This document shows, piece after piece, positions 880 to 39,229 of a stretch of DNA of 39,229 nt. Within the stretch, counting starts at the first letter, position 1. The number at the start of each line of letters is the position of its first letter. The translations under genes were made by a program, and so were the position numbers. The notes under the pieces were generated by a model. The model made no database searches and was not told where the DNA came from. It worked only from the letters and a program-made list of their open reading frames with translations. The stretch lies in the IMG/VR virus record IMGVR_UViG_2537561824_000013. One strand, written 5' to 3'. The DNA is from a virus. Lineage: Duplodnaviria > Heunggongvirae > Uroviricota > Caudoviricetes.

Positions 880-2110
880 CTCATTACCTGAAGCTGTTTT
901 TTATTGCTTATACATGATCAAATACTCCTTACATAATTAAGGAGAACAAAATGGAACTTAAAAAATTGATGGAACATATTTCTATTATTCCCGATTACAG
1001 ACAAGCCTGGAAAGTGGAACATAAATTATCGGATATTCTACTGTTGACTATTTGTGCCGTTATTTCTGGTGCAGAAGGTTGGGAAGATATAGAGGATTTT
1101 GGGGAAACACATCTCGATTTTTTGAAGCAATATGGTGATTTTGAAAATGGTATTCCTGTTCACGATACCATTGCCAGAGTTGTATCCTGTATCAGTCCTG
1201 CAAAATTTCACGAGTGCTTTATTAACTGGATGCGTGACTGCCATTCTTCAGATGATAAAGACGTCATTGCAATTGATGGAAAAACGCTCCGGCACTCTTA
1301 TGACAAGAGTCGCCGCAGGGGAGCGATTCATGTCATTAGTGCGTTCTCAACAATGCACAGTCTGGTCATCGGACAGATCAAGACGGATGAGAAATCTAAT
1401 GAGATTACAGCTATCCCAGAACTTCTTAACATGCTGGATATTAAAGGAAAAATCATCACAACTGATGCGATGGGTTGCCAGAAAGATATTGCAGAGAAGA
1501 TACAAAAACAGGGAGGTGATTATTTATTCGCTGTAAAAGGAAACCAGGGGCGGCTAAATAAAGCCTTTGAGGAAAAATTTCCGCTGAAAGAATTAAATAA
1601 TCCAGAGCATGACAGTTACGCAATGAGTGAAAAGAGTCACGGCAGAGAAGAAATCCGTCTTCATATTGTTTGCGATGTCCCTGATGAACTTATTGATTTC
1701 ACGTTTGAATGGAAAGGTCTGAAGAAATTATGCGTGGCAGTCTCCTTTCGGTCCATAATAGCAGAACAAAAGAAAGAGCCCGAAATGACGGTCAGATATT
1801 ATATCAGTTCTGCTGATTTAACCGCAGAAAAGTTCGCCACAGCAATCCGAAACCACTGGCACGTGGAGAATAAGCTGCACTGGCGTCTGGACGTGGTAAT
1901 GAATGAAGACGACTGCAAAATAAGAAGAGGAAACGCCGCAGAATTATTTTCAGGGATACGGCACATCGCTATTAATATTTTGACGAATGATAAGGTATTC
2001 AAGGCAGGGTTAAGACGTAAGATGCGAAAAGCAGCTATGGACAGAAACTATCTGGCGTCAGTCCTTGCGGAGAGCGGGCTTTCGTAGTCTTACCCCGACT
2101 CTCCCCCAGC
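880..2110 (+). mobile_element. ISAs1-family insertion sequence (E. coli H-repeat type); boundaries approximate, terminal inverted repeats not confidently identified
   Basis: Single 378-aa transposase ORF with about 100 bp of flanking sequence each side, as expected for a ~1.3 kb IS; a weak 8-bp match GTGTTTAA at 614-621 vs 2120-2127 would give an element too long to be convincing. Confidence 0.45.
951..2087 (+). CDS. ISAs1-family transposase (H-repeat-associated protein)
   Basis: 378-aa ORF with ATG at 951 preceded by AAGGAGA; product recognisably similar from memory to E. coli H-repeat proteins (YhhI/YdcC-type), e.g. the ...[21 protein letters not shown]... segment. Confidence 0.85.
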
Positions 2111-26576: not shown

Positions 26577-27300
26577 AACTGCTGCCTCCCCATGTGAGAT
26601 ATCGCGGTGCCAGTTCGCGCAGGATGCGCTGCGGATAATGGCGGTTCTCCCGCCAGCTGGCCGCATTGCGTCCGGCATTCACCGTGGCGACATGTCCGAA
26701 CCAGCGGGTGCTGTCCAGACCTTTCTGTGATGCAAGCCGCCTGTCCCGTTGTACCCAGCCCAGACCACCGTTATAGCCCGACAGTGTCATGGCCATACGC
26801 TCGCAGTCACTGGCGGCGCTGACACGCTGCCACAGCCAGCGGTCATAGCTGACCAGCGCCCGGATAGCCCATGCCGGATTAAACGGCTCACGACTGCTCA
26901 GCATCGGTATCAACTGGCTTATCCAGTCGGCAGTGGCAGGCATGAACTGCGCCAGTCCCTGAGCGCCAGCCGGCGAGATCGCATCAGGTCGCCAGCCGCT
27001 TTCCTGATGCAGTTGCGCGGCGAAATCGGCCACCGGCGCAGACAGTCCCCATTCAAGCCGGGCATTACGGATCACATCATCGCGATACTGCAGCGCAGCC
27101 TGCGGAGGTTGTGCTGCGCATGCCTGGCTGAAAAAGCCGCCACACCAGAGCAACATTGCGACAAAGAATACCCATGCCATATGAACCAGAAAGGTCCCGG
27201 CGCGGACTGACAGGCGTTCGGTTCTGATGAAGACCCGAAAGGCTTCGAAAGCCAGTTTCAGGGACATGCATACAATCCAGGTGATCTGCGGCCAGTTCAT
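26560..27300 (-). CDS. Endolysin, SLT-domain lytic transglycosylase with N-terminal membrane/signal-anchor region
   Basis: ATG at 27300; SLT-type motifs (...ESGWRPDAISPAGAQGLAQFMPATADWI...); hydrophobic N-terminus. Confidence 0.75.
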   Translation of the reverse strand: MNWPQITWIVCMSLKLAFEAFRVFIRTERLSVRAGTFLVHMAWVFFVAMLLWCGGFFSQACAAQPPQAALQYRDDVIRNARLEWGLSAPVADFAAQLHQESGWRPDAISPAGAQGLAQFMPATADWISQLIPMLSSREPFNPAWAIRALVSYDRWLWQRVSAASDCERMAMTLSGYNGGLGWVQRDRRLASQKGLDSTRWFGHVATVNAGRNAASWRENRHYPQRILRELAPRYLTWGGSSCVASG

Positions 27301-27302
27301 GA

Positions 27303-27653
27303 TTAAAGCCCCATCGCAACAGCCAGGCAGACCGCTGCAACAATCAGTGCACGGCGGATTAACGCAGCAGAAAACACCAGGTGAAGGCCGGTCTGTACCG
27401 GGAAACGCCCTTCAGCCATCAGCCTGTCGTCATGTTTCAGGTACTGACCGGGACGGGCTTTGGGGAAGAGCGAACGGTCAAGCCAGTAACCCAGCACTGC
27501 TGCCAGCGTGATGAGTGCCAGCTTGTAGATCACAACAGGCAGCTGCTGTGGTGAGACCAGAGCGATGGTGCCCAGCAACAGCACTGAGGTCAGCAGCCAG
27601 CCGCTGAGGCGAGGTTTTTTAACAGGGGGAATGAATTTTTTCAGTTTTTTCAT
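27303..27653 (-). CDS. Putative holin (small multi-TM membrane protein)
   Basis: ATG at complement of 27651-27653 with AAGGAGA 6 nt upstream; about 116 aa with three hydrophobic segments; immediately upstream of the endolysin. Confidence 0.5.
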   Translation of the reverse strand: MKKLKKFIPPVKKPRLSGWLLTSVLLLGTIALVSPQQLPVVIYKLALITLAAVLGYWLDRSLFPKARPGQYLKHDDRLMAEGRFPVQTGLHLVFSAALIRRALIVAAVCLAVAMGL

Positions 27654-27783
27654 GTGTGTCTCCTTATCTGGTGGAGACAGCATCACAAATACAGGGCGCG
27701 AAGGATTTTAAAGCGCGTTAAGAGAGCCGGGGATACGGGATGTGCAGGATAAACGATGAATTATTCACAGAGGAGAATACGAT

Positions 27784-28512
27784 ATGACGCAGACACTGAA
27801 TCCGGTCATCACTGTCACCGTGTCCGGTCCTGTGGGCAGCGGTAAAAGTTACGTACTGGCGCGAATAGAGGAAGTGGTGAAACAGGAATTCGGAAACAGC
27901 GTCATTGTCGACGCCGCAGACGTGGACGGTGAGCGCCGTATGAGTGGGGATGATCTGAGCACATGGCAGAAACCACGGGCTGGCACAGTGATCAGGCTGG
28001 AGGAATACACGGGACAGGGCCTGTTGTCATACGGCGAGGAGCGTATCTGTCGGACGAATGAGCTGCTGGATGTTATATGCCCCACGGGCCGGCAACCCTG
28101 GATACTGCCCGATGCACTGCATGCCACCATTGCGGCACTGATGACAGTTTACGATCAGGAGCTGCTCATGAAGGAGTTACGTAAACTCACTGGTCAGTCA
28201 ACAGAATGTTGTTCGTCCCCGAAGTACGGCAAACAGGAACACATCCCGATTAACCAGCCTCCCCGGTTCTTCGACGAATACCTTCTGACACCGGAAAATA
28301 AAGCTGAGCATGAAGAGATCAAAGCGGCGTTGTTCCGGGAAATCAGGAAGATTGCTGAAATGCAACTGGAGGGCGGGCTGGACAGAGTGATGGCGAGAGG
28401 AGAATGGGCATCGCTGTTTGAAAGAGTTTCCCCGGAATTACTTCCCCTCGCACTGGCTATCGGGATTATGCAGACAGCGGATAAACCTCACTTACGTTCA
28501 TTAAACACGTAA
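27784..28512 (+). CDS. Hypothetical protein with N-terminal P-loop (Walker A) motif; unknown function
   Basis: ATG at 27784 with AGGAGAA upstream; Walker A-like GPVGSGKS at residues 15-22; the remainder is unrecognisable to me. Confidence 0.6.
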   Translation: MTQTLNPVITVTVSGPVGSGKSYVLARIEEVVKQEFGNSVIVDAADVDGERRMSGDDLSTWQKPRAGTVIRLEEYTGQGLLSYGEERICRTNELLDVICPTGRQPWILPDALHATIAALMTVYDQELLMKELRKLTGQSTECCSSPKYGKQEHIPINQPPRFFDEYLLTPENKAEHEEIKAALFREIRKIAEMQLEGGLDRVMARGEWASLFERVSPELLPLALAIGIMQTADKPHLRSLNT

Positions 28513-28892
28513 CGCATAATCCGGGATACGCATTCAGCGATGACTGCATTTTCACCGGTTTTTACTGCATCCAGAAGTGACTCTTTAAATGGTACGGGCC
28601 GGGGCTGCAGAAAGGTCGGCATGGCATTGAGCAGACAGAGCGTTTTTTCCGTGAGGACGACATCAGCCGCTCCCACAGCCAGCAACTGAGAGTAACGAAT
28701 ATAGCTGTTATCCCGAAGCCATATCAGCGTATCAATAAAACACCGGCACTTTTTCTGGTCGTGATCAACCTGGTCCGGGATATCGAAAAAACCAGAATAA
28801 ATCAAAACCTGAGGTGCCGGATGCGTGTTCAGTAATCGGCAGAATATTTTGCCGGTGAGTACATAAAAATCATCATTTAAGGAGTGCATCAT
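28488..28892 (-). CDS. Hypothetical protein (134 aa), unknown function
   Basis: ATG at complement of 28890-28892 with a weak GGGGA Shine-Dalgarno; converges on and overlaps the 3' end of the P-loop gene by 25 nt; its start codon overlaps the start of the divergent 71-aa ORF. Confidence 0.35.
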   Translation of the reverse strand: MMHSLNDDFYVLTGKIFCRLLNTHPAPQVLIYSGFFDIPDQVDHDQKKCRCFIDTLIWLRDNSYIRYSQLLAVGAADVVLTEKTLCLLNAMPTFLQPRPVPFKESLLDAVKTGENAVIAECVSRIMRYVFNERK

Positions 28893-29106
28893 GAATCCCC
28901 GATTAACGTTAACAGAACATCAGCGCCGTGCTGAAGCAGTGAACAATGTTCTGGAAGATATTATCCGGTTATACCGCGGAGAACTGAGTGTCTGTCGTGC
29001 CGCTTTTCATTTTCAGGGAATACAAAAGCAGTTTGATACTTCTGTTTTTGCAGAAGGTATTACTTATGCCCTGGACCGGATAAGGTCAGAAAATCGCCCC
29101 GGATAA
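28891..29106 (+). CDS. Hypothetical small protein (71 aa), unknown function
   Basis: ATG at 28891 with TAAGGAG 7 nt upstream. Confidence 0.45.
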   Translation: MNPRLTLTEHQRRAEAVNNVLEDIIRLYRGELSVCRAAFHFQGIQKQFDTSVFAEGITYALDRIRSENRPG

Positions 29107-29160
29107 TCCCTAAACCACATTAACAGAAATCCCGCCATCCCTGCCGCATCATGAAAGAAC

Positions 29161-29192
29161 GACCAGCCCGGCACCCGAAAGCCGGGCTGGTC
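29161..29192. other. Perfect 12-bp stem / 8-nt loop hairpin between the 71-aa ORF and the methyltransferase gene
   Basis: GACCAGCCCGGC acccgaaa GCCGGGCTGGTC; not followed by a U-run on the plus strand and only a modest one on the minus strand. Confidence 0.5.
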
Positions 29193-29296
29193 ATCGCCCC
29201 ACAGGAATGCGCTGTGAGCCGACCAAGGTTCAGTCAGTCTCGCGAGACCTGACCAGACTGCCATATTTTTTAATAATTGTAAAAGGCTTGCAGATT

Positions 29297-30061
29297 ATGA
29301 AAATGCAGACATTACCCATCGTGCCGTGGATTGGTGGCAAACGCCGCCTTGCAAAACACATTCTGCCGCTGTTTCCGGCGCATGAATGTTATGTGGAGCC
29401 GTTTTGTGGGGCAGCAGCGCTCTATTTTCTTAAGACACCCGGCAAGATCGAAGTCATCAATGATATCAACGGTGAACTGGTGAATCTGTACCGGGTGGTA
29501 AAGCATCACCTGGAAGAATTTGTCCGCCAGTTCAAATGGGCGCTGGTCAGCCGTCAGATCTACAAATGGCTGCAGATCACCCCGGAAGAAACACTGACGG
29601 ATATCCAGCGTGCGGCACGGTTCTACTACCTTCAGAAGCAGGCGTTTGGCGGCAAGGTGGCAGAGCACAGCTTCGGTACCTCCACCACATCCCCGCCACG
29701 CTTCAACCTGCTACGTATTGAAGAAGAACTGTCAGCGGCACACCTGCGGCTTTCCAGAACAGTCATAGAACACATGGACTGGCAACAGTGCATTGAGCGT
29801 TATGATCGTCCGCACACGCTGTTCTACTGCGACCCACCGTACCTGGGTACGGAAGGCTATGGTGTGGATTTTCCTGAAGGGAACTACTCGCGGCTGGCAG
29901 AGCTGGCCCGGTGCATCAGAGGAAAAATGATAATTTCGGTGAACGACATCCCGCAGATGCGCGAGGTGTTCACTGGACTGAACATACAGACAGTGAATAT
30001 CAACTACAGTCTGGCGGGTAAACCCACGCCGCGCCGTGAACTGCTAATCTGCAACTTCTGA
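29297..30061 (+). CDS. DNA adenine methyltransferase, Dam-like (D12 class N6-adenine MTase)
   Basis: ATG at 29297; product MKMQTLPIVPWIGGKRRLAKHILP... has the Dam-type N-terminus, an AdoMet motif (EPFCGAAALYF) and the catalytic DPPY motif; specificity cannot be read from sequence. Confidence 0.85.
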   Translation: MKMQTLPIVPWIGGKRRLAKHILPLFPAHECYVEPFCGAAALYFLKTPGKIEVINDINGELVNLYRVVKHHLEEFVRQFKWALVSRQIYKWLQITPEETLTDIQRAARFYYLQKQAFGGKVAEHSFGTSTTSPPRFNLLRIEEELSAAHLRLSRTVIEHMDWQQCIERYDRPHTLFYCDPPYLGTEGYGVDFPEGNYSRLAELARCIRGKMIISVNDIPQMREVFTGLNIQTVNINYSLAGKPTPRRELLICNF

Positions 30062-30068
30062 AACAAAA

Positions 30069-30091
30069 CCGGAAAGCACAATGCTTTCCGG
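30069..30091 (-). terminator. Intrinsic terminator for the repressor transcript (also sits just after the methyltransferase gene)
   Basis: CCGGAAAGCA caa TGCTTTCCGG is a 10-bp stem; on the minus strand it is followed by TTTTGTTT. Confidence 0.55.
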
Positions 30092-30177
30092 TAAACCAAA
30101 CAACTTCCACTATGTCACTGGCGATGTTTTCTGAAAGCATCCAGATCAACCACCTGTCCTTTGTGTCCGGGTCAGTA

Positions 30178-30534
30178 TCAGCCTGCGATTTTTCCTGGTT
30201 TTGGCTGAGTATAGAATCGCCCAATCTCAAGAAATGAGCGTTGTTGGTCTGGTGTCATGTCGTCAAAAGTATCTATTAGTTTTTGTTTTTCTGGGGAAAT
30301 TTGATTCTGGTTTCTAGTCATACCATCTGTGCTCATTCCAGTGAGCAACCAATTTACATCAACATTAAACTCTTGATGCATCTTTAACAGAAACTCCCCT
30401 CCAGGCATCGCCTTTCCATTTTCAATCTGACTGATACCACCATTAGAAATACCTAAACGAGCTGCAAATTCTCTCTGGTTCAACCCTGCTTTCTTCCTCA
30501 CAGAAATAACGCGCTCTCCTATATCTTTGCTCAT
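30178..30534 (-). CDS. Prophage immunity repressor, XRE-family HTH protein
   Basis: 118-aa ORF divergent from the early operon; HTH segment LNQREFAARLGISNGGISQIENGK; its start codon lies inside an operator half-site. Confidence 0.8.
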   Translation of the reverse strand: MSKDIGERVISVRKKAGLNQREFAARLGISNGGISQIENGKAMPGGEFLLKMHQEFNVDVNWLLTGMSTDGMTRNQNQISPEKQKLIDTFDDMTPDQQRSFLEIGRFYTQPKPGKIAG

Positions 30535-30575
30535 AAAAGTGAATCTCTATCTTGATATGCTCATAATTATGAGCA
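30528..30575. promoter_or_regulatory. Candidate operator/divergent promoter region between the repressor and the early operon
   Basis: Perfect 18-bp palindrome TGCTCATAATTATGAGCA at 30558-30575 plus an extra half-site TGCTCATAA at 30528-30536 overlapping the repressor ATG. Confidence 0.55.
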
Positions 30576-30627
30576 ATAATCTAACACATATAAGGCAAAC
30601 ATCATTGCATCAACAAAGGAGACAACG

Positions 30628-30816
30628 ATGACTGCAGAACAAGTCAAAGCTCTCTTCCGCCAGCGCGGGATCACTTTCACCCGCTGGGCAGAAGAAAACG
30701 GCTACAACCGCAATGAGGTATACCGCGTTCTCAACGGGCAGACCAAAGCCCGTTACGGTAAATCCCATGAAATCGCCGTGAAGTTGGGACTGAAATCAAC
30801 AGCTCAGGCGGCCTAA
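30628..30816 (+). CDS. Small DNA-binding early regulator (functional position of Mu Ner / lambda Cro)
   Basis: ATG at 30628 with AAAGGAGA upstream; 62-aa product with an HTH-like segment (YNRNEVYRVLNGQTKARYG); first gene of the rightward operon opposite the repressor. Confidence 0.55.
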   Translation: MTAEQVKALFRQRGITFTRWAEENGYNRNEVYRVLNGQTKARYGKSHEIAVKLGLKSTAQAA

Positions 30817-30862
30817 ATATTTTGAGTCTTTGTAAAAGGTTATCACATATCGCAAAAGAGGT

Positions 30863-31177
30863 ATGCAGATGAGTAAGACGAATGTTTCAAGCTCCGGCAG
30901 TCGCATCCTCCGGGTACTCAAAGCGCTGCGCGGTCATGCCCTGAACGGTATTTCTAACGGTGAACTGGCGACAGCACTGCACGAGTCACCGGCAAACATC
31001 AACCGGGCACTCAACACCCTCATTGAAGAAGGGCTGGCTCTGAAACTGGAGAACGGACGTTTTGCACCGGGCATCCAGTTACTGCAGATCGCCATGGCCC
31101 ACAGTAACGAGATGGCACGTGCACAGGATCGTATTAACGAAATTAACCAACGTGTCATTTCAGGTAGTCGTTTGTAA
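30863..31177 (+). CDS. Putative winged-helix DNA-binding protein
   Basis: 104-aa ORF with ATG at 30863; HTH-like segment ISNGELATALHESPANINRALNTLIEEGL. Confidence 0.45.
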   Translation: MQMSKTNVSSSGSRILRVLKALRGHALNGISNGELATALHESPANINRALNTLIEEGLALKLENGRFAPGIQLLQIAMAHSNEMARAQDRINEINQRVISGSRL

Positions 31178-38418: not shown

Positions 38419-38868
38419 ATGCAGAAAAAACGCCTGATACAGCTTATCCATATTGCCCGTAATGAACTGGGTATGGATGAAGACACCTACCGCCAGATGT
38501 TACAGGGGCTGACCGGTAAAGCCTCAACCAAAGGAATGGATACCACACAACTAAACTGCGTGCTGGAATCCATGAAAAAGAAAGGCTTTCGCGTTAAACC
38601 AGCCAGAAAAGCCAGCTCCGGTTTACCGCTGGATAACCATCCGCAGTCCAGGAAAATTCGTGCGCTATGGCTTGAAATGGCTGCTGCCGGCATTGTTCGT
38701 GACCGTTCAGAAAATGCATTAGCGAGGTGGATCAAGCGGGAAACGGGCATCAGCGCCCTGCGCTGGCTCAGTACTGAACAGGCAAGCAGTGTTATTGAGA
38801 AACTGAAGAAGTGGCAGCGCAGAGCTGCGGGAGTCAAACATGAGCGACCTGAATCAGTTTCGAAGTAA
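38419..38868 (+). CDS. gemA: GemA-like early regulatory protein (Mu gp16 family)
   Basis: 149-aa product starting MQKKRLIQLIHIARNELGMDEDTYRQ, resembling Mu GemA; lies immediately upstream of mor as in Mu. Confidence 0.7.
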   Translation: MQKKRLIQLIHIARNELGMDEDTYRQMLQGLTGKASTKGMDTTQLNCVLESMKKKGFRVKPARKASSGLPLDNHPQSRKIRALWLEMAAAGIVRDRSENALARWIKRETGISALRWLSTEQASSVIEKLKKWQRRAAGVKHERPESVSK

Positions 38869-39229
38869 GGGGCCGGAACTCCTGGTGGAACTGGCACAGC
38901 ATCCCTCTGAGACCGTTCGCGAGATTATTGATATTGAGCCCGAAGTTGCCGACCAGATTGGTCAGGCCGTCGCGAACCGAATGATGCAGGTCTGGGGCGG
39001 GCAAAACGTTTATTTCCCGATGGGCATGGTATGGAAGGTCAGTCAGCGCGACCGGGAAATCTTCAGGGAGTTTAACGGACGCAACCACCACGAACTGGCC
39101 CGCAAATTTGGTGTTTCGCTTCAGTGGGTCTACAGCGTGGTTAAGCGGGTAAGAAAAGAAGAACTGGATCGGATGCAGGGCAAGCTATTTGCTGATGAAC
39201 CCGATGCAGATACGGAGAAAAAAGAGTAA
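38840..39229 (+). CDS. mor: Mor-like middle transcription activator
   Basis: 129-aa product, the same length as Mu Mor, with a C-terminal HTH (HHELARKFGVSLQWVYSVVKRVR); the stop codon is the last three bases of the window. Confidence 0.8.
   Translation: MSDLNQFRSKGPELLVELAQHPSETVREIIDIEPEVADQIGQAVANRMMQVWGGQNVYFPMGMVWKVSQRDREIFREFNGRNHHELARKFGVSLQWVYSVVKRVRKEELDRMQGKLFADEPDADTEKKE

What the first reader, a model, noticed from the sequence alone, without database searches (positions are those of the whole stretch)
27654..30177. Accessory island between the lysis cassette and the immunity repressor: P-loop protein, two small ORFs with overlapping divergent start codons, and a Dam-class methyltransferase
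This 2.5 kb block sits where the late and early arms diverge, is transcribed independently of both, and has gene-specific strong ribosome-binding sites. The 242-aa protein has a Walker A motif in its first 25 residues and an otherwise unrecognisable body. The 134-aa and 71-aa ORFs start from a shared CATCATGAAT sequence with start codons overlapping by 2 nt on opposite strands. A perfect 12-bp hairpin separates them from the methyltransferase gene. Modules in this kind of position in temperate phages are often lysogen-expressed defence or superinfection-exclusion cargo, and I cannot match any of the three unknown proteins to a described system.
Basis: partly seen in the sequence, partly recalled or inferred. 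Interest (0 to 1): 0.75.

Follow-up and report, generated by a model that had tools for sequence, protein, structure and literature searches.

The report
Mosaic prophage cargo slot with Dam-linked RNA
The block is a real but patchwork accessory region of a Mu-like E. coli prophage: three unknown, dispensable genes inserted next to a widely conserved phage DNA methylase, and the "12-bp hairpin" belongs to a conserved structured RNA element, absent from Rfam 15, that accompanies that methylase in many temperate phages.

Summary
The window is a BcepMu-like transposable prophage of E. coli ST131, 100% identical to phage PhiKM over the island.

The interval between the holin and the repressor is a variable slot, but it is not one system. 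The commonest layout among diverse relatives is holin, then a ~130-nt structured element, then Dam. The P-loop gene and the divergent 134/71 pair are separable insertions:
- The 134-aa gene is deleted or frameshifted in some relatives.
- Serratia keeps only the C-terminal module of the P-loop protein.
- The ~75-aa P-loop domain is joined to shuffled C-termini in about 60 protein clusters.

None of the three unknown proteins, and none of the alternative cargo, matches a known defence family. Structure prediction gave nothing usable.

The 12-bp hairpin is one stem of a covarying multi-stem element that folds on the strand antisense to Dam. A covariance model finds it upstream of Dam in 49 of 63 further phage loci and in phiE125, VP882 and B3. 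Rfam 15 has no match.

Verdict: an ordinary mosaic cargo region of unknown function, plus a probable new Dam-associated antisense RNA.

The parts
27303..27686 (-). Left flank: holin, the first gene of the leftward lysis/late arm (RefSeq start 27653)
   Evidence: Pfam Holin_2-3, E=1.5e-41; RefSeq annotation
27687..27783 (.). Divergent control region between the holin and the P-loop gene. It holds the motif TTTTAAAGCGCGTTAAGAG (27706-27724), which is kept in relatives that lack the cargo.
   Evidence: Single occurrence in the window. Similar sequence in AW1.7 and Serratia.
27784..28512 (+). 242-aa protein. It has a conserved ~75-aa mini P-loop domain (27784-28011) and a poorly predicted helical body. 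Its last ~70 residues form a module that stands alone in Serratia.
   Evidence: phrog_3787. About 60 clusters share only residues 1-76. AF2 pLDDT is 84-92 for residues 11-60 and 82 for 61-70, and below 55 after residue 70. The Serratia 89-aa protein matches profile positions 176-230. dN/dS 0.19-0.30.
28488..28892 (-). 134-aa protein of unknown function, convergent with the P-loop gene and overlapping it by 25 nt
   Evidence: phrog_2266. 53% identical Serratia orthologue in the same position. dN/dS about 0.2 against Serratia. Deleted in L009 and L039, frameshifted in L040.
28887..28896 (.). CATCATGAAT: head-to-head start codons of the 134-aa and 71-aa genes. The two mRNAs must therefore overlap at their 5' ends.
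   Evidence: Sequence; same layout in Serratia
28891..29106 (+). 71-aa helical protein of unknown function, fast evolving
   Evidence: phrog_4490. The Serratia 73-aa orthologue is about 27% identical. dN/dS 0.4-0.6.
29150..29234 (-). Core of the conserved structured element: two hairpins (P2, and P3 = the 12-bp hairpin at 29161-29192) closed by a 4-bp helix and followed by UUCUUUC on the - strand
   Evidence: Covariance model R1, 88.7 bits, the only hit in the window. 94.9% of cells paired, 15 of 27 pairs with compensatory changes, 0 of 500 shuffles as good. 120 G.U pairs on the - strand against 15 on the + strand.
29235..29270 (-). P1: extended hairpin whose apex is the palindrome AGTCTCGCGAGACC (29236-29249)
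   Evidence: A hairpin is present in all 29 orthologues although the sequence differs. In the eight or so sequence types I read by eye the apex is a DNA palindrome through its centre (sequences). One copy in the window.
29276..29303 (-). Promoter-like site TTTTCA-16-TACAAT on the - strand. Its -35 hexamer overlaps the Dam start codon.
   Evidence: A promoter-like site in the same register in 6 of 11 divergent phages, e.g. phiE125 TTGCCA-16-TAAACT.
29297..30061 (+). Orphan D12-class (Dam-family) DNA adenine methyltransferase
   Evidence: PF02086 and TIGR00571 above their cut-offs. DPPY motif visible in the sequence. dN/dS 0.04-0.06.
30068..30092 (-). Terminator-like hairpin (11 bp, tail TTTGTTTCAG) that would end the repressor transcript
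30178..30534 (-). Right flank: HTH_3 / CI-type immunity repressor
   Evidence: Pfam HTH_3 4.6e-15 and Phage_CI_repr 1.8e-05

Best explanation
The 2.5-kb block is not one system. It is a patchwork of three separately inherited modules in the central variable slot of a BcepMu-like transposable prophage, between the late (lysis) promoter region and the immunity repressor.

Module 1 is the conserved core of the slot: an orphan Dam-family methyltransferase with a ~130-nt structured element immediately upstream. I infer that this is a phage DNA-modification unit comparable to Mu's com-mom unit, which methylates phage DNA to escape restriction. I also infer that the element is a short RNA read from the strand opposite to Dam. 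It would start at a promoter whose -35 hexamer overlaps the Dam start codon and end at the U-run after the 12-bp hairpin. By promoter competition and/or antisense pairing with any Dam mRNA that starts further upstream, it would hold Dam expression down. It would also stop leftward transcription before the lysis genes.

Module 2 is the 134/71 gene pair. Because the start codons abut, their 5' mRNA ends must be complementary, so expression of one should inhibit the other.

Module 3 is a polymorphic protein: a conserved ~75-aa Walker-A domain joined to interchangeable helical C-terminal modules.

Modules 2 and 3 are real genes under purifying selection, and they are dispensable. Their biochemical function is unknown.

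Shown: the anatomy, the mosaic inheritance, the coding status, the RNA covariation and the strand bias. Inferred: the timing of expression, the role of Dam, the role of the RNA, and any role of the cargo in phage-host or phage-phage conflict.
For: Identity of the phage. The island is 100% identical to phage PhiKM (Bcepmuvirus) and to ST131 chromosomes.

Mosaic inheritance. Among the 17 BcepMu-like IMG/VR loci:
- 8 have the holin followed directly by Dam (~240 nt apart);
- 5 have the P-loop gene, the 71-aa gene and Dam, with the 134-aa gene full-length in 4 of them (frameshifted in L040) and deleted in L039;
- 2 have a P-loop relative plus Dam;
- 2 have other cargo.
E. coli variants show further combinations.

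Separability of the cargo. The 134-aa gene is lost by a clean deletion in L009 and L039 and is frameshifted in L040. Serratia has only the C-terminal module (89 aa) plus the 139/73 pair plus Dam. The P-loop N-domain is shared by about 60 clusters with shuffled C-termini.

Coding status. dN/dS is 0.04-0.06 for Dam, 0.19-0.30 for the P-loop gene, about 0.2 for the 134-aa gene and 0.4-0.6 for the 71-aa gene.

RNA element.
- The - strand folds 6.6-15.4 kcal/mol better than the + strand in 4 of 4 orthologues.
- 94.9% of cells are paired, 15 of 27 pairs have compensatory changes, and 0 of 500 shuffles do as well. On 52 distinct sequences 24 of 27 pairs covary.
- 120 G.U pairs on the - strand against 15 on the + strand.
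- Model R1 hits the strand antisense to Dam in 49 of 63 further Dam loci and in phiE125, VP882 and B3.
- The element survives in two loci that have lost Dam (L006, L020).
- A - strand promoter-like site lies in a conserved register.

Resemblance to the mom unit. A Com homologue lies between the element and Dam in L112 and in B3. The window encodes a Mor-family activator. Mu Pmom has divergent promoters momP1 and momP2 (PMC4287176).
Against: - There are no transcript data, so the RNA, its promoter and its terminator are predictions. The terminator scan did not list the 12-bp hairpin.
- The - strand -10 hexamer is weak in several orthologues.
- The P1 apex is a perfect DNA palindrome through its centre, which suits a protein-binding site better than an RNA loop.
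- The P1 palindrome occurs once in the window and is absent from the lysis promoter. It is therefore not a general site for the Mor-type activator.
- The window has no Com, and Mu's own mom region has no such element.
- The sequence specificity of the Dam enzyme is unknown.
- For the three unknown proteins the explanation gives an architecture, not a biochemical function.
Confidence: 0.6

Rival explanations
1. One reading: the P-loop, 134-aa and 71-aa genes, with or without Dam, form one lysogen-expressed defence or superinfection-exclusion system.
For: - The slot is variable and lies next to the immunity gene.
- Walker-A ATPases are common in defence systems.
- The shuffled C-termini of the P-loop family look like products of an arms race.
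- The 134/71 pair and the C-terminal module of the P-loop protein travel together from E. coli to Serratia.
Against: - There is no significant PADLOC hit for the three proteins or for 10 alternative cargo proteins. The P-loop protein gave only generic Walker-A hits at E >= 0.003.
- The components occur without each other.
- The genes lie on both strands, not in one operon.
- P-loop relatives lie between the lysis genes and the packaging genes, on their strand, in Pseudomonas-type prophages.
- The genes co-oriented with the repressor in sister variants are better candidates for lysogen expression.
Confidence: 0.15
2. Counter-defence cargo made during lytic growth. Dam would protect phage DNA from restriction. 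The small, fast-evolving 71-aa protein and the polymorphic P-loop protein would inhibit host or prophage defences.
For: - Relatives place this Dam family where Mu places mom, in some cases with a Com gene upstream.
- The + strand genes point the same way as the early operon.
- The 71-aa protein has a relaxed dN/dS of 0.4-0.6.
- The P-loop family lies next to late genes in other phages.
Against: - There is no similarity to any described inhibitor.
- No anti-defence library was available to test this.
- The 134-aa gene points the opposite way.
Confidence: 0.2
3. The conserved element upstream of Dam acts as DNA, for example as protein-binding palindromes or a cruciform, rather than as RNA.
For: - In the eight or so sequence types I read by eye, the P1 apex is a palindrome through its centre (CGCG, TCGA, GGCC, GTGCAC, TACGTA, CCGG; sequences).
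- Its centre lies about 41.5 bp upstream of a predicted Dam transcription start. Mor binds a dyad centred at -43.5.
Against: - The P2 and P3 loops are not palindromic.
- Their stems covary freely, with many one-sided U/C changes opposite G. These keep pairing only on the - strand.
- A U-run follows the structure on that strand only.
Confidence: 0.15
4. The 12-bp hairpin is simply an intrinsic terminator that ends the 71-aa gene's transcript on the + strand.
For: It lies 55 nt after the stop codon of the 71-aa gene.
Against: - The + strand has no U-run after the stem (ATCGCCCC).
- The hairpin is present in relatives that have no 71-aa gene.
- It is part of a larger covarying structure.
Confidence: 0.05
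5. The 134/71 pair, or the P-loop/134 pair, is a toxin-antitoxin or abortive-infection pair.
For: The genes are small, adjacent and overlapping, and their arrangement is conserved.
Against: - They are divergent or convergent, not co-transcribed.
- They match no toxin or antitoxin family.
- The 134-aa gene is deleted or frameshifted while both neighbours stay intact.
Confidence: 0.05

Closest known systems
Phage Mu com-mom DNA-modification unit (Pmom with divergent promoters momP1/momP2, activator C, translational activator Com)
   Same: - It is a DNA-modification gene at an operon boundary of a transposable phage.
- A Mor/C-family activator is encoded in the same genome.
- Relatives (B3, L112) have a Com gene directly upstream of this Dam family.
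- A promoter-like site points away from the modification gene, as momP2 does (PMC4287176).
   Different: - The enzyme is a D12-class Dam methyltransferase, not Mom.
- The window has no Com.
- Model R1 finds nothing in Mu's mom region.
- No conserved structured RNA on the opposite strand turned up for Mu in the papers I read.
Variable accessory ('moron') slots of temperate phages next to immunity or lysis genes, such as lambda rexAB/sieB and the P2 cargo hotspots
   Same: Conserved flanks (holin, repressor) enclose interchangeable cargo with its own signals.
   Different: None of the cargo seen here matches a described defence family. Part of the slot (Dam plus the element) is conserved rather than variable.
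P-loop NTPases (Walker A regions of the ABC, AAA_30 and KAP types)
   Same: The motif GxxGxGKS follows a beta-strand, and G20 and K21 are invariant. The best PDB profile hits are the Walker A regions of ABC transporters.
   Different: - Only about 75 residues are conserved.
- No Pfam model reaches its threshold.
- Some members have GKN in place of GKS/T.
- The rest of the protein consists of interchangeable helical modules.
Cis-antisense RNAs of phages and restriction-modification systems (lambda OOP, P22 sar, the antisense RNAs of the EcoRI system); recalled from memory, not tested here
   Same: It is a short structured transcript on the strand opposite to a regulated gene, ending in a hairpin and a U-run.
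   Different: The element has a Y-shaped core plus a palindromic-apex hairpin. It is tied to one methyltransferase family across unrelated phage types, and Rfam 15 has no match.
'Excludon'-type divergent genes with overlapping 5' ends (described in Listeria); recalled from memory
   Same: The abutting start codons of the 134-aa and 71-aa genes force their 5' untranslated regions to be complementary.
   Different: The transcripts have not been mapped, and the functions of both genes are unknown.

Membership tests
D12-class (Dam-family) N6-adenine DNA methyltransferase | Match to the family profile above the curated threshold | tested here: met
   PF02086 scores 102 bits against a cut-off of 22. 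TIGR00571 scores 116.6 against 114.85.
D12-class (Dam-family) N6-adenine DNA methyltransferase | Catalytic DPPY motif and an N-terminal SAM-binding FxGxG-like motif | tested here: met
   YCDPPYLG and EPFCGAAALY are visible in the translation.
D12-class (Dam-family) N6-adenine DNA methyltransferase | GATC target specificity | not testable with these tools
   Needs methylome sequencing or digestion assays.
Known anti-phage defence systems (PADLOC-DB v2) | Component proteins match the system's models | tested here: not met
   The only significant hits are generic methyltransferase models for Dam. The P-loop protein gives only generic Walker-A hits at E >= 0.003. The 134-aa and 71-aa proteins and 10 alternative cargo proteins give none.
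P-loop NTPase | Walker A motif GxxxxGK[ST] | tested here: met
   GPVGSGKS at residues 14-22, with G20 and K21 invariant in 26 relatives.
P-loop NTPase | Walker B motif and a complete alpha/beta core recognised by a family model or a fold match | tested here: inconclusive
DUF2513 (label that UniRef gives the Serratia orthologue of the 134-aa protein) | Match to Pfam PF10711 | tested here: not met
   No Pfam hit for the 134-aa protein at E <= 0.1, nor for P0031 at E <= 1.
Toxin-antitoxin pair | Co-transcribed pair with recognisable toxin or antitoxin domains, in which the antitoxin is indispensable | tested here: not met
   The genes are divergent or convergent and have no domain hits. The 134-aa gene is lost while its neighbours stay intact.
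Mu com-mom-like late DNA-modification unit | Com translational activator directly upstream of the modification gene | tested here: not met
   No Com ORF in window 29107-29296. Com is present in L112 (PF10122, 5.3e-15) and in B3.
Mu com-mom-like late DNA-modification unit | Mor/C-family activator in the genome and a dyad-symmetry site centred near -43.5 | tested here: inconclusive
   A Mor-family protein is encoded at 38840-39229. The palindrome lies about 41.5 bp upstream of a predicted start, but it is unique in the window and absent from the lysis promoter.
Any Rfam 15 RNA family | cmscan match | tested here: not met
   No match at E <= 1 in 27000-31000 on either strand.
Intrinsic (Rho-independent) terminator, for the 12-bp hairpin | GC-rich stem followed directly by a U-run on the transcribed strand | tested here: inconclusive
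   On the - strand the tail is GUUCUUUC (GCUCUUUUUU in Serratia); the + strand has no U-run. The consensus scan did not list it. The first four tail bases pair in a closing helix.

The most novel reading that the evidence does not exclude
The element that contains the 12-bp hairpin is a new and widespread class of phage small RNA. It would be transcribed divergently from a promoter that overlaps the start codon of a Dam-family methyltransferase gene, and it would gate methyltransferase expression (or act in trans) in temperate phages as different as ST131 BcepMu-like prophages, phiE125, VP882 and B3. A second, less likely reading (about 0.15): the polymorphic mini-P-loop protein and the 134/71 pair form an undescribed exclusion or counter-defence set whose swappable C-terminal modules set its specificity.
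Probability: 0.35. Interest if true: 0.7.

Novelty: new variant of a known kind. Interest (0 to 1): 0.5.

Why it matters
- The prophage is carried by hundreds of complete E. coli genomes, mostly from the pandemic ST131 lineage. Its central slot holds three protein families that nobody has characterised.
- The methyltransferase and its upstream element form a module shared by model temperate phages (VP882, phiE125, B3). If the element is an antisense RNA, it would be a general and previously unnoticed control layer for phage DNA methylation, which affects escape from restriction and the host epigenome.
- The element explains why annotated mini-ORFs overlap this spot (VP882 gp36, B3 ORF46) and why GenBank and RefSeq disagree on the Dam start.
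- The mini-P-loop family, a fixed 75-aa domain with shuffled tails, is a clean case for studying how modules are exchanged in phage accessory proteins.

Tried and rejected
- Sequence families. Pfam, NCBIfam, PHROGs and PADLOC scans of the three unknown proteins gave only PHROG families of unknown function and sub-threshold generic P-loop hits.
- PDB sequence and profile searches gave nothing beyond Walker A.
- The UniRef label 'DUF2513' for the Serratia orthologue was not confirmed.
- I tested whether the P1 palindrome is the general Mor-activator site. It occurs once in the window and not at the lysis promoter, so I rejected it as a general site.
- I tested whether the holin-proximal motif recurs at other late promoters. 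It does not.
- I tested whether Mu's mom region carries the element. It does not.
- Literature searches by protein accession, PhiKM, BcepMu or VP882 plus antisense found nothing on these genes or on the element.
- The genome-collection scan for the P-loop domain returned only 4 loci.
- The weak PADLOC hit to mad8 (E 0.003) and the Dam hit to PD-Lambda-5_B were dismissed. The first covers only the Walker-A-containing N-terminal region. For the second, no partner gene of that system is present.
Full report
**What the window is.** The island (27654-30177) is 100% identical to Escherichia phage PhiKM (genus Bcepmuvirus). It is also identical to prophages in many E. coli ST131 chromosomes: 626 of 5,426 complete genomes hold a match. 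The late genes, from the holin leftwards, lie on the - strand. The early genes (Ner-like protein, DDE transposase, through to Mor) lie on the + strand. The island sits where the two arms diverge.

**Check of the observation.** All four ORFs, the Walker A motif, the CATCATGAAT head-to-head starts, the perfect 12-bp inverted repeat and the D12-class methyltransferase are present as described.
- A second perfect hairpin (30068-30092) followed by TTTGTTTCAG on the - strand looks like the terminator of the repressor gene.
- The Dam start is probably 29297, as in RefSeq. The 29207 start used in the PhiKM record would run through a conserved non-coding element.

**Is it a cargo slot?** Yes. A 6.1-kb query across the region covers at least 80% of its length in 496 genomes. 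In the rest, conserved flanks enclose different middles. Examples:

| Locus | Content between holin and repressor |
|---|---|
| AW1.7 | Dam and a 175-aa gene |
| GON1437 | Dam, an 85-aa gene and a 312-aa gene |
| B20123 | truncated P-loop gene, 193-aa and 328-aa genes, no Dam |
| 503440 | DUF2441, 203-aa and 328-aa genes |
| 21KM1392 | DUF2441, Dam, 175-aa gene |
| AHB1 | the window's four genes plus two more |
| strain 97.3 | P-loop gene, 71-aa gene and Dam, without the 134-aa gene |

Among the 17 BcepMu-like IMG/VR loci, 8 go straight from the holin to Dam, about 240 nt apart. The P-loop, 134-aa and 71-aa genes are therefore an insertion of about 1.4 kb between the lysis control region and the element upstream of Dam.

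**The pieces are separable.**
- In 97.3 (L009) and L039 a clean deletion removes all but the first 18 codons of the 134-aa gene.
- In L040 the 134-aa gene is frameshifted.
- Serratia prophages carry an 89-aa gene that corresponds only to the last ~70 residues of the 242-aa protein. They also carry a 139-aa orthologue (53% identity) and a 73-aa orthologue (~27% identity) arranged head-to-head, followed by Dam.

**All three unknown ORFs are real genes.** dN/dS is 0.19-0.30 for the P-loop gene, about 0.2 for the 134-aa gene against Serratia, and 0.4-0.6 for the 71-aa gene. For Dam it is 0.04-0.06.

**The 242-aa protein.**
- An exhaustive profile-free search found 60 clusters. Nearly all of those below about 60% identity share only residues 1-76; G15, G20, K21, W61 and P64 are invariant in an alignment of 12 N-terminal domains. 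Their C-termini are unrelated or rearranged.
- AlphaFold2 is confident only for the N-domain. Fold searches returned noise.
- PDB profile hits cover only the Walker A strand and helix of ABC-type NTPases.
- Relatives lie in the same slot in Salmonella and in IMG/VR BcepMu-like phages. In Pseudomonas-type prophages they lie between the spanin gene and the HNH/terminase genes, on the same strand as those genes.
- This placement argues against a purely lysogenic role. It does not reveal a function.

**Defence hypothesis.** PADLOC gives no significant hit for the three proteins or for ten alternative cargo proteins of the slot. The genes that follow the repressor on its own strand in sister variants are better candidates for lysogen-expressed functions, and they too are unknown.

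**The hairpin.**
- The ~135 nt upstream of Dam, including the hairpin, is conserved in E. coli, Salmonella and Serratia even where the cargo is absent.
- The strand antisense to Dam folds 6.6-15.4 kcal/mol better than the sense strand in four of four orthologues.
- nhmmer found 38 distinct versions, two of them in loci that have lost Dam.
- RNAalifold predicts two hairpins, P2 and P3 (P3 is the 12-bp hairpin), closed by a 4-bp helix.
- 94.9% of cells are paired, 15 of 27 pairs carry compensatory changes, and 0 of 500 shuffles reach these values. Slid controls give at most 53% pairing.
- On the - strand there are 120 G.U pairs. In the + strand reading there are 15, and pairing falls to 81%.
- A covariance model finds one hit in the window (29150-29234, - strand, 88.7 bits). 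It also finds hits antisense to Dam in 49 of 63 further Dam loci, with 24 of 27 pairs covarying.
- The model hits phiE125 at 74 bits, VP882 at 60 bits and B3 at 40 bits. It finds nothing in Mu's mom region.
- Rfam 15 has no match.
- A - strand promoter-like site whose -35 hexamer overlaps the Dam ATG recurs in the same register in divergent phages.
- A third hairpin, P1, precedes P2. In the sequence types I inspected its apex is a perfect DNA palindrome, which I cannot explain. It could be a protein-binding site or an RNA dimerisation loop.

**Comparison with what is known.**
- This Dam family is common in temperate phages. In several it occupies the place that mom has in Mu, sometimes with a Com gene between the element and Dam.
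- Mu's Pmom has divergent promoters, and Mor binds a dyad centred at -43.5 (PMC4287176).
- The window's palindrome is at about -41.5 from a predicted start, but it is unique in the window. Membership in a mom-like regulatory scheme therefore remains unproven.

**Verdict.** The block is a patchwork, not a system, and nothing ties it to defence.

Noticed in passing
window 30068-30092 (- strand): A perfect 11-bp hairpin followed by TTTGTTTCAG lies right after the repressor gene and abuts the Dam stop codon. It would terminate the repressor transcript. Dam transcripts have no matching + strand terminator and would run antisense into the repressor gene.
   Followed up: partly
window 29236-29249; orthologous positions in L010, L014, L045, L056, L080, L082, L111, L112, L115: In the eight or so sequence types I read by eye, the apex of hairpin P1 is a DNA palindrome through its centre (CGCG, TCGA, GGCC, GTGCAC, TACGTA, CCGG), although the sequence differs between phages. 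An ordinary RNA loop would not be expected to show this. It suggests a dimeric protein site or a self-complementary kissing loop.
   Followed up: partly
L112 3335-3526; phage B3 ORF47 (L118 1046-1231): A Mu Com-type zinc-ribbon gene lies between the structured element and Dam in some phages, giving a com-dam unit analogous to com-mom.
   Followed up: yes
L118 924-1004 (B3 ORF46); L120 784-1116 (VP882 gp36); PhiKM CDS 29908-30762: Annotated small or extended ORFs overlap the conserved RNA element and are probably mis-annotations. The PhiKM Dam CDS starts 90 nt further upstream than the RefSeq model.
   Followed up: partly
L024, L026, L029, L030, L011-L013 (Pseudomonas-type prophages): Relatives of the mini P-loop domain, 160-170 aa long, sit in a fixed position between the spanin gene and an HNH endonuclease/TerS/TerL block. 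Most are followed by a 70-85-aa ORF.
   Followed up: partly
L003 2799-4915; L004 4618-6447; L007 6723-7702; L008 3431-4831: In sister prophages the repressor is followed on its own strand by unknown genes (328+193 aa, 297+145 aa, 175 aa, 312 aa). These are the likeliest lysogen-expressed cargo of this slot. None matches Pfam or PADLOC.
   Followed up: partly
window 27706-27724; AW1.7 (L007) and Serratia (L014) equivalents: A near-palindromic motif, TTTTAAAGCGCGTTAAGAG, in the holin-proximal control region is conserved across genera and occurs once in the window. On the - strand it includes TAAAAT, a possible -10 hexamer of the lysis promoter.
   Followed up: partly
L006 3190-3332; L020 5892-6012: The structured element persists in two prophages that have lost Dam. 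L006 keeps the first Dam codons and a perfect TATAAT on the - strand. L020 has a different upstream sequence with TTGACG-16-TAAAAA.
   Followed up: partly
window 951-2087 (+) and the first ~2.1 kb: A 378-aa ORF on the + strand lies at the far left of the window, outside the leftward late arm. It may be tail-fibre-associated cargo or flanking DNA.
   Followed up: no
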